This document shows, one piece after another, positions 16,414-63,579 of a stretch of DNA of 64,000 bases; positions within the stretch are counted from its first letter, which is position 1; every line of letters starts with the position of its first letter. The stretch comes from Octopus vulgaris (Eukaryota): NCBI GenBank assembly GCA_951406725.2, contig OX597814.1, positions 56,358,001 to 56,422,000 on the forward strand, read 5' to 3'. The position numbers were made by a program, and so were the translations under genes. The notes below the pieces were generated by a model that saw only the letters and a program-made list of their open reading frames with translations, was not told the origin of the DNA and ran no database searches.

Positions 16414-19400
16414 CTATAGAAAAAAAGAAATAATATTAATATTAGTAATTTCTTTAACATAATATAGATGGATGACAAGAACAAAATACAAAAATGGGGG
16501 TGGGTTGCAGATTTGTATATGTGAATACAGATATGAATGAAAAGAGAAATGAAGAAAAACGCATTCCAAAGGAGAAATGATACCTGGTGTCAATCAGGGA
16601 AATCTGCATGTTGTAAATATTCCTTAGAGCCAACAGAAAATGCTTTCTTGTATCTGTGTTCTCTAGCCTACTTGTTTATGCTCACAGCGATCCTACTCTT
16701 TCATGCTATTCCCACTGCCAATGTCCACTCTTTAGCAAATATGCTGAAAGGAGCATTTCCCTATCTATTTGCTCCAAATGTAATGAATGAGGAGATATTG
16801 CAAGGATAATTTACAAAAGCACTCAGAGTTTGAAGCAGGGTTGGTTATAGATAAAAACAGGCATGGAAACCTAGTAGATGGACAACCATCAAAAGCATGT
16901 CAAGGTACCTCATAGATCCAGGATTACTTTCACTATTAAGTGTGTCACCTCCAAGAAGTGCTTTCTAGTTTGTTGGCAGGTGCTAAAATTAGGCCCATTT
17001 ACAAAGGCTATACTTTGCAACCATCATTGAACAAATTCACTGAAGGACATATTTTCCTCCACCACCATCTTTTTCTTCAAGTGAAACTTGAAAAAGTCAG
17101 TGAGGCTTTGTTCAAAGAGGAAAATATCTTGTTTTTAGTATTTTATTTTTTAAGGAAGCGGAAAATAGTGGGAGGAGAAATTGTAAGGTGCTAGTTGATA
17201 GACTAACCTAGAAGGCATTTAATAGAATATAAGCAAATACAAGTATCCTTAGCCTTACCTCCACAAGTTTTACATGACTTCCGGCAATGAACCAACATAT
17301 AACGAGCATTTGTAGTACACATATCGTGCTTTGCCCATTCTTCACATCCAGCATCATTGTCTTGACAAGAACCTAGAAAAAAGAAAGGAATATATTTACA
17401 GATTCCTTTAAAAAATGGACTTGAATCGTTGAGGCAGAATTATTTCAGTATATATATAAAATGTGGTAGTTCAATGATCTCTGCTTCATTTATATATGTG
17501 TGTGAGTATTTACCAAGGAAATGCTGACAGTAACTTCAAAGTTTCAGCTTACTATCGTCTTACTACAAAGAAAGGAATGTTCTCAAGAAAATTTAGCAAA
17601 CACCAGAACGTAAGAGAGTAAAACAAATGAAAAGATACAAAATATAGATTAATCACAAACCAAATTTCGTTGTTAACCCTTACGTAATCATTTACGTAAT
17701 TGTCCGCAACTCATCAGTGTGATCGTCTTTGCAAATATATTTTGAAGAACTATACACGAGACGTCCGCATGAGATTGAATATGTATACAGTTCTACCAAT
17801 TACAATTTGGGTCACATTTCAAAAGTATTCGTTTTGGCGCGCCAAACTACCGGAAATAATTCTGCAGAAAATAATTCTCTGCAGTGAATTTTGTCGGTTA
17901 GAGAACATAGTTATTTACAGTTCTGGAAATTATATTTGCAAAGACGATCACATTGATGAGTTGCGGGCAATTACGTAAATGATTACGTAAGCGATAACAA
18001 CGAAACCTGGTTTGCGATTAATTTATATTTCGTACATTTTCATTTGTCTTGTTCGCTTACGTTCTGGCATTTGCTCAGTTTTCTTGAGAACATTCCTTTA
18101 TTACAGGTAAGACGATTGCGGACTTTCTTCTAGCATAATGTATGTCCACTTACAGATCATCCCTCTTATATATATGTTATATAATTTTTTTGAAACTTTT
18201 TCAGTATGCTAGACCGCTGTTTTTAAATTCATATTAATCAAATTAATATTCAAATTTTCACAATTATTATTTTAAAATACATAAACACATATATTCATAC
18301 GTATATACATATAAACATATATATACGTATATATATATATATACATACATATATATATATATATGTATGTACATATATATGTATATATATACATATATAT
18401 GTGTATATATATATATACATATATATATATGTATATATATATGCACATATATATATACATATATATAAACATATATATATACATATGTATATATATGCAT
18501 ATATATATGTATATATAAATGCATATATATACATATATATATATACATATATATACATATATGTATACATATATATATATATATATATATACATATATAT
18601 ATACATATATATATACATATATATATATACATATAAATATACATATATATGCATATATATATATATCTATATATATATGTATATAAATATGTATATATAT
18701 ATATACATATATATATACATATATATTTACATATATGTATATACATACATATTTATACATACATATATATACATACATATATATGCATAGATCTATATAC
18801 ATATATATATATATATATATATATATATGTGTGTGTGTGTGTGTGTGTGTGTGTGCAGTGGCTGTACAAACTGCAGAAATCGAACAACAGTCTTTTCTGT
18901 ACATGACCCAGAAGATAGTACAGGAGCTGACGTGGACACAGGATGCAAACTCAAAGCCGCGCATTCCAGTGCACAAGATCGCACCAGGTGACTGGTCCCG
19001 GATGTCCACCACTAACATCTATCCCGATATCGCACCTATACTCCTACTGAATAGGAGGGGTCTGCTACAGAGGTAAGATTCTTAGCAACAGAGGTAACAT
19101 TCTCTTTCTAAAAGAGCTTGCTGCATGCAATCAAGCAATATGCATGGCACTCACGGAAACGCATCTAGCTCATGATGTAACAGATGGGAAAGTACACATA
19201 TCAAGGTATGCTGTACTTCGTACAGACTGAAGAGAAAGAAGCCACGATGGAGTTGCTATGTATATCTGTGAAGACGGCACACCTTGTATTATTGTCACAT
19301 TCAAACTGAGTTTGTGACACCTTAATAATACACATAAAGCAAACTGATATAGCTATATGCACGATATATTAGACATGTCTGTTATATATACATTATATAT

Positions 19401-63579: not shown

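What the first reader, a model, noticed from the sequence alone, without database searches (positions are those of the whole stretch)
17652..63098. Introns carry a population of minimal hammerhead ribozymes, several on the pre-mRNA strand
Seen: CUGANGA-stemII-GAAA-stemIII-NUH motifs closed by stem I at 46438-46486(-), 49429-49545(-), 17652-17723(-), 17947-18018(+) and 31758-31840(+). Decayed versions at 63055(+), 58521(-), 28360(-) and, outside the gene, 2311(+). Stem sequences differ between sites, so they come from different families. Most have short palindromic stem III (CGUACG, CAUAUG, CUCGAG, CUAG, GCGC). Established: minimal type-I hammerheads with palindromic stem III characterise Penelope-like terminal repeats and are thought to cleave as dimers. 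Inference: one gene has accumulated about ten such motifs, three with an intact core in sense orientation, which could cut nascent intronic RNA.
Basis: partly seen in the sequence, partly recalled or inferred. Interest (0 to 1): 0.8.

Follow-up and report, generated by a model that had tools for sequence, protein, structure and literature searches.

The report
Penelope hammerhead relics in octopus introns
The hammerhead ribozyme motifs in this octopus protease gene are real, but they are leftover ends of common jumping genes (Penelope-like elements), no denser here than elsewhere in the genome, and likely mostly inactive passengers in introns that are spliced out.

Summary
The motifs are real: 3 intact-core hammerheads in the window against 0 in 40 shuffles. 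Seven of nine sites belong to six repeat families with 500-2,100 first-look candidates each. Two families (49429, 28360) end Penelope-like elements with reverse transcriptase and GIY-YIG upstream. Two (46438, 17652/17947) are ORF-less, retrozyme-like units of 361 and about 510 nt. The host is an intact 18-exon astacin-ShK gene, spliced in 4 of 4 runs. The gene is not enriched: 4 motifs in 64 kb against 23 in 380 kb sampled elsewhere (P=0.54), which extrapolates to about 100,000 motifs genome-wide. Corrections: 17652/17947 are one family in an inverted pair that folds into a 200-bp duplex; 28360 is not decayed but a U3-A8 core variant (203 genome matches); 46438 is not minimal; 58521 and 2311 are unconfirmed. 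No sense motif has a same-family partner in the transcript, so dimer cleavage in cis is excluded; cutting was not tested. Known kind (PMC4209133); the scan noted a similar case in another genome (e1-7858566). My searches found no cephalopod hammerhead report.

The parts
16304..63579 (-). Host gene, astacin metalloprotease with ShK domains (nas-14-like); 17 of 18 coding exons lie in the window, the first exon is about 7.6 kb beyond its end
   Evidence: Pfam PF01400 and PF01549 exons; P0121 (Octopus sinensis, 755 aa) maps on 18 exons; splice-site contexts; spliced contigs in 4 of 4 runs
46247..46615 (-). Family B copy, 1.1 units of an ORF-less 361-nt monomer between (TA)n runs; hammerhead 46438-46486, sense, intact core, predicted cut after 46443 (GUC); G-G mismatch in helix II
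49203..49995 (-). Family C copy, 3' end (pLTR) of a Penelope-like element, Neptune-like by recalled motifs; hammerhead 49429-49545, sense, intact core, palindromic helix III ACGUACGU, 90-nt helix II, predicted cut after 49433 (GUA)
   Evidence: (GIY-YIG PF01541, E 0.0015, below cut-off)
17552..17917 (-). Family A copy, sense arm of an inverted pair; hammerhead 17651-17724, intact core, weakened helix III, predicted cut after 17658 (GUU)
17916..18276 (+). Family A copy, antisense arm; hammerhead 17947-18018 with C3U; transcribed first and predicted to pair with the sense arm
28269..28606 (-). Family F copy, 3' end of a young Penelope-like element; hammerhead 28360-28402, sense, U3-A8 core variant, palindromic helix III ACUAGU, 5-bp helix I, predicted cut after 28365
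31660..32092 (+). Family D copy; hammerhead 31758-31840, antisense, intact core, palindromic helix III, helix I mismatch
62900..63140 (+). Family E copy (extent searched); decayed hammerhead at about 63055-63098, antisense, G8U and 1-nt deletion
2160..2491 (.). Family G inverted pair outside the gene; U3-A8-like core with palindromic helix III but only 2-bp helix I; doubtful hammerhead
58521..58564 (-). Hammerhead-like sequence with A6G core and broken helix I; no family found; unconfirmed

Best explanation
These motifs are type-I hammerheads in high-copy retroelement ends (Penelope-like for two families, likely Penelope-derived for the rest) that lie in the introns at the genome's background density and are likely inactive passengers. 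Shown: family membership, copy abundance, an upstream RT plus GIY-YIG frame for families C and F, variable 5' ends with inverted 5' duplicates, and ORF-less head-to-tail units for families A and B. Inferred from the literature model: in the parent element the hammerhead cuts multimeric element RNA, as a dimer formed through the palindromic helix III; reverse transcription then inserts 5'-truncated 3' ends, often at (TA)n, so that lone hammerheads are scattered. Inferred here: a lone copy in a pre-mRNA lacks its dimer partner, carries decay mutations or is paired to its inverted neighbour, so it would cut little or not at all before the intron is spliced out.
For: Families A-G have 1311, 1495, 2110, 1776, 536, 1056 and 1110 first-look candidates. 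L140 holds a 460-aa RT frame and a broken GIY-YIG region ending in family F, with an inverted 5' piece; L137 holds the RT C-terminal half and GIY-YIG ending in family C, also with an inverted 5' piece. The L140 frame matches Octopus proteins at 87-89% and many 700-780-aa RVT_1 plus GIY-YIG proteins. Density: 3 C3-G8 hits in 64 kb against 15 in 380 kb (P=0.46); 4 against 23 with both cores (P=0.54). One sense copy per family in the whole gene; cross-family helix I runs of 0-2 bp. The A pair folds as one duplex, -287.6 kcal/mol, z -27. mRNA spliced in 4 of 4 runs, exon 17 joined to exon 16 across the intron that holds the A pair. Single S. mansoni minimal motif: no detectable cleavage; dimers low (PMC4209133).
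Against: All 4 descriptor-passing motifs in the window are on the sense strand, while the 3 antisense ones are damaged (4 of 4, P=0.125; 7 of 9 with the dynein sample, P=0.18): not significant, but not what pure neutrality makes most likely. Family B has a helix III that can form in a single copy, so the dimer argument does not cover 46438. Dynein gene stretches hold fewer motifs than random stretches (4 against 19 independent loci, one-sided P=0.025), which hints at some selection against genic copies. No ORF link was found for A, B, D, E or G within 1.5 kb flanks. Contigs cannot show RNA ends, so spliced mRNA does not exclude partial cutting.
Confidence: 0.8

Rival explanations
1. At least one sense motif, most plausibly family B at 46438, folds as a monomer and cuts a measurable share of pre-mRNA, lowering or timing the protease mRNA, as the CPEB3 intronic ribozyme does in mouse.
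For: Intact core, GUC site, 5-bp helix I with a long extension and a 4-bp helix III at 46438. 4 of 4 passing motifs are sense. Intronic ribozyme effects on host mRNA have precedent (PMC10274809, abstract only). Invertebrate retrozyme hammerheads cleave efficiently (PMC7229834, passages).
Against: The 46438 copy has a G-G mismatch in helix II and an old, decayed sequence (about 82-87% identity to other copies). Its active fold is 8 kcal/mol above the ensemble, although the model penalises such junctions and better copies score 4.6-7.5. Full-length spliced mRNA contigs occur in all four runs laid. No enrichment over background.
Confidence: 0.12
2. Lone intronic motifs are cut in trans by pairing with RNA from other copies of the same family, which are abundant in some samples.
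For: Palindromic helix III allows homodimers. Family-A-like contigs reach depths of about 140 to above 1,000 in run X1, similar to the host mRNA.
Against: Those contigs are 85-92% like this copy, are partly joined to unrelated sequence and have no known strand. Even covalent dimers cleaved weakly in vitro (PMC4209133). The A sense copy is predicted to be sequestered.
Confidence: 0.05
3. The motifs are chance matches in AT-rich DNA.
For: With one core mismatch allowed, shuffles give about 0.9 hits per window; 58521 and 2311 may be of this kind; Rfam models do not score the loci.
Against: 0 intact-core hits in 40 shuffles; the motifs are conserved across family copies (15 of 15 for C, 13 of 20 for A, 9 of 10 for F); 203 and 92 exact motif matches against 0 and 1 reversed controls.
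Confidence: 0.03

Closest known systems
Minimal hammerheads in pseudo-LTRs of metazoan Penelope-like elements (Cervera and De la Pena 2014, PMC4209133)
   Same: Type I topology, short helix I, palindromic helix III, many families per genome, mostly single truncated copies, close pairs on opposite strands, and the U3-A8 core covariant first seen in Schistosoma mansoni.
   Different: Octopus host; much longer helix II in families A, C and D (42-90 nt); GUU sites in families A, E and F; a sampled density of about 40-60 per Mb, which extrapolates above the 2,000-9,000 per genome reported there (different descriptors, so not strictly comparable).
Non-LTR retrozymes of animals (Cervera and De la Pena 2020, PMC7229834; Li et al. 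2026, bioRxiv 10.64898/2026.07.22.740005)
   Same: Family B: ORF-less 361-nt unit, 38% GC, head-to-tail junctions, fuller hammerhead. Family A: ORF-less unit of about 510 nt. Intronic copies are common in Xenopus too (42-44%).
   Different: Copies are 0.5-1.5 units with Penelope-type inverted 5' ends, not arrays; only 1 exact pair of family B cut-site motifs at unit spacing genome-wide, with the first hammerhead truncated; circular RNA not tested.
Domesticated intronic self-cleaving ribozymes (CPEB3; amniote intronic hammerheads, the latter recalled)
   Same: Self-cleaving motif on the sense strand of a host intron.
   Different: These are high-copy, decaying repeat fragments with no shown conservation or activity.

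Membership tests
PLE-associated hammerhead | Type I fold with CUGANGA (or U3-A8) and GAAA boxes and an NUH site | tested here: met
   4 window sites pass; family states pass for A-F; not met for 2311 and 58521
PLE-associated hammerhead | Short palindromic helix III | tested here: met
   Perfect in C, D, F, G and the E family; near-palindromic in A and B
PLE-associated hammerhead | Lies in the terminal repeat downstream of an RT plus C-terminal GIY-YIG frame (families C and F) | tested here: met
   L137, L138 and L139, L140
PLE-associated hammerhead | Same ORF link for families A, B, D, E, G | tested here: inconclusive
   No contiguous upstream ORF in 1.5 kb flanks of the fetched copies; flanks short, best-matching copies only
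PLE-associated hammerhead | 5'-truncated copies with an adjacent inverted 5' duplicate | tested here: met
   Inverted pieces beside copies of A, B, C, D, F, G; matches the description in PMC8557442
PLE-associated hammerhead | Self-cleavage, weak and dimer-dependent | not testable with these tools
   Needs an in vitro assay
Non-LTR retrozyme (families B, A) | ORF-less unit of 150-450 nt, GC under 50%, with one type I hammerhead | tested here: met
   B: 361 nt, 38% GC, no long frame; 10 of 16 copies exceed one unit. A is about 510 nt, above the range
Non-LTR retrozyme (families B, A) | Tandem arrays with at least two complete hammerheads | tested here: not met
   Window copies hold one each; 1 exact pair among 92 motif matches, first hammerhead truncated; exact matching misses diverged arrays
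Non-LTR retrozyme (families B, A) | Expressed as linear and circular monomer RNA | not tested
Domesticated intronic ribozyme | Low copy number, not a live repeat fragment | tested here: not met
   500-2,100 candidates per family
Domesticated intronic ribozyme | Conserved at the orthologous intron in other species | not tested
   No relative genome was available

The most novel reading that the evidence does not exclude
The octopus genome carries on the order of 100,000 intact-core hammerheads from dozens of Penelope and retrozyme-like families, so most long genes hold several on the sense strand; a monomer-competent subset (family B type) cuts nascent intron RNA and forms a genome-wide, ribozyme-based layer of control or load on octopus mRNA maturation. 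The density part is a rough measurement made here; the cutting part is untested.
Probability: 0.1. Interest if true: 0.75.

Novelty: new member of a known kind. Interest (0 to 1): 0.3.

Why it matters
As a locus it is ordinary: lone Penelope hammerheads scattered through animal genomes were described in 2014. Three side results have some value. (1) A sampled density of about 40-60 motifs per Mb suggests octopus is a very hammerhead-rich genome; two octopus repeat papers I checked do not mention ribozymes. (2) A young Penelope family with a fixed U3-A8 core extends a variant reported from schistosomes. (3) ORF-less retrozyme-like units with Penelope-type insertion anatomy support the view that retrozymes derive from Penelope ends. 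With so many intronic copies, an annotated octopus genome would make the sense-versus-antisense test of in vivo activity easy to run.

Tried and rejected
Rfam: one search was swamped by microsatellite matches to miRNA models, with no hammerhead among the 150 of 387 rows shown; one search gave 0 matches at the gathering score in 5 loci. Minimal and long-helix variants escape these models, so I give this little weight. The A pair as a MITE: rejected, since other copies have variable 5' ends and mostly no symmetric second arm. Family B as a classic tandem array: 1 exact pair only. Cross-family dimers in cis: rejected. Folding probabilities of the active monomer were 1e-6 or lower for all five sites, but I had no active-ribozyme control, so they are not counted as evidence of inactivity. 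Circular fold of the B monomer: z -2.1, weak. Sequencing-run search: no RNA holder listed on record; the four runs laid are guessed RNA, and their spliced joints are what I rely on. Contigs cannot show RNA ends, so cleavage was not tested. The planned intronic sample of 560 kb could be only 240 kb, so the strand test (3 sense, 2 antisense) has little power. A genome-wide search for an autonomous partner of family A was not completed, so that link stays open. Supplements of the cited papers were not read; those of PMC4209133 and PMC7229834 could list cephalopod motifs.

Full report
Setting. The window is G000:C1:56358001-56422000 in a 2.8-Gb genome, 34% GC and rich in microsatellites. Proteins closest to its genes are from Octopus, so I treat the host as an octopus. 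The gene is an astacin metalloprotease with ShK domains on the minus strand. P0121 (755 aa) maps on 18 exons, from about 7.6 kb beyond the window end to a stop at about 16304, without stops in the exons. Eight of the nine sites are intronic; 2311 lies 14 kb downstream.

Noticed in passing
G000, 38 sampled 10-kb stretches L099-L136: 15 C3-G8 and 8 U3-A8 type-I motifs in 380 kb from many different families (shuffles of 620 kb: 0-1 and 0-2); the C3-G8 count extrapolates to about 110,000 genome-wide (62,000-182,000).
   Followed up: partly
L109:8633-9439, L110:8329-8368, L121:9954-9994: Further U3-A8 hammerhead families with GUC sites, three copies within 800 bp in L109.
   Followed up: no
L140:4004-7258: Nearly full-length Penelope-like element of family F: 460-aa open RT frame, broken ends, inverted 5' piece.
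   Followed up: partly
window 17552-18120: The inverted family A pair would form a 200-bp RNA duplex 180 nt upstream of exon 17, a possible A-to-I editing substrate (inference; editing not examined).
   Followed up: partly
window 17560-17917, run X1: Family-A-like contigs from other loci reach depths of about 140 to above 1,000, one with a helix II 12 nt shorter; an abundant transcript carries this repeat.
   Followed up: no
G000 genome-wide: Most of the 92 exact matches have the AT centre in helix III rather than family B's CG; probably a related, younger family, often in close inverted pairs.
   Followed up: no
window 39364-43291 (-): LINE with long open frames: CCCH zinc finger, endonuclease (PF14529) and RT (PF00078); fragments of the same family at 19105-19894.
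   Followed up: no
window 36574-37122 and 38365-38947: Recent direct duplication (98-99% identity) around a (TA)n run, just upstream of the exon at 36448-36561.
   Followed up: no
window 25598-26335 (-): Pif1 helicase fragment (PF21530), likely a Helitron remnant.
   Followed up: no
window 14978-16292: Repeat of 1.3 kb with Mariner-like transposase remnants (recalled motifs) directly after the host stop codon, so it probably supplies 3' UTR sequence.
   Followed up: no
L141-L164 (11 dynein heavy chain genes): Only 4 independent motif loci in 240 kb against 19 in 380 kb of random stretches (one-sided P=0.025): possible depletion in genes.
   Followed up: partly
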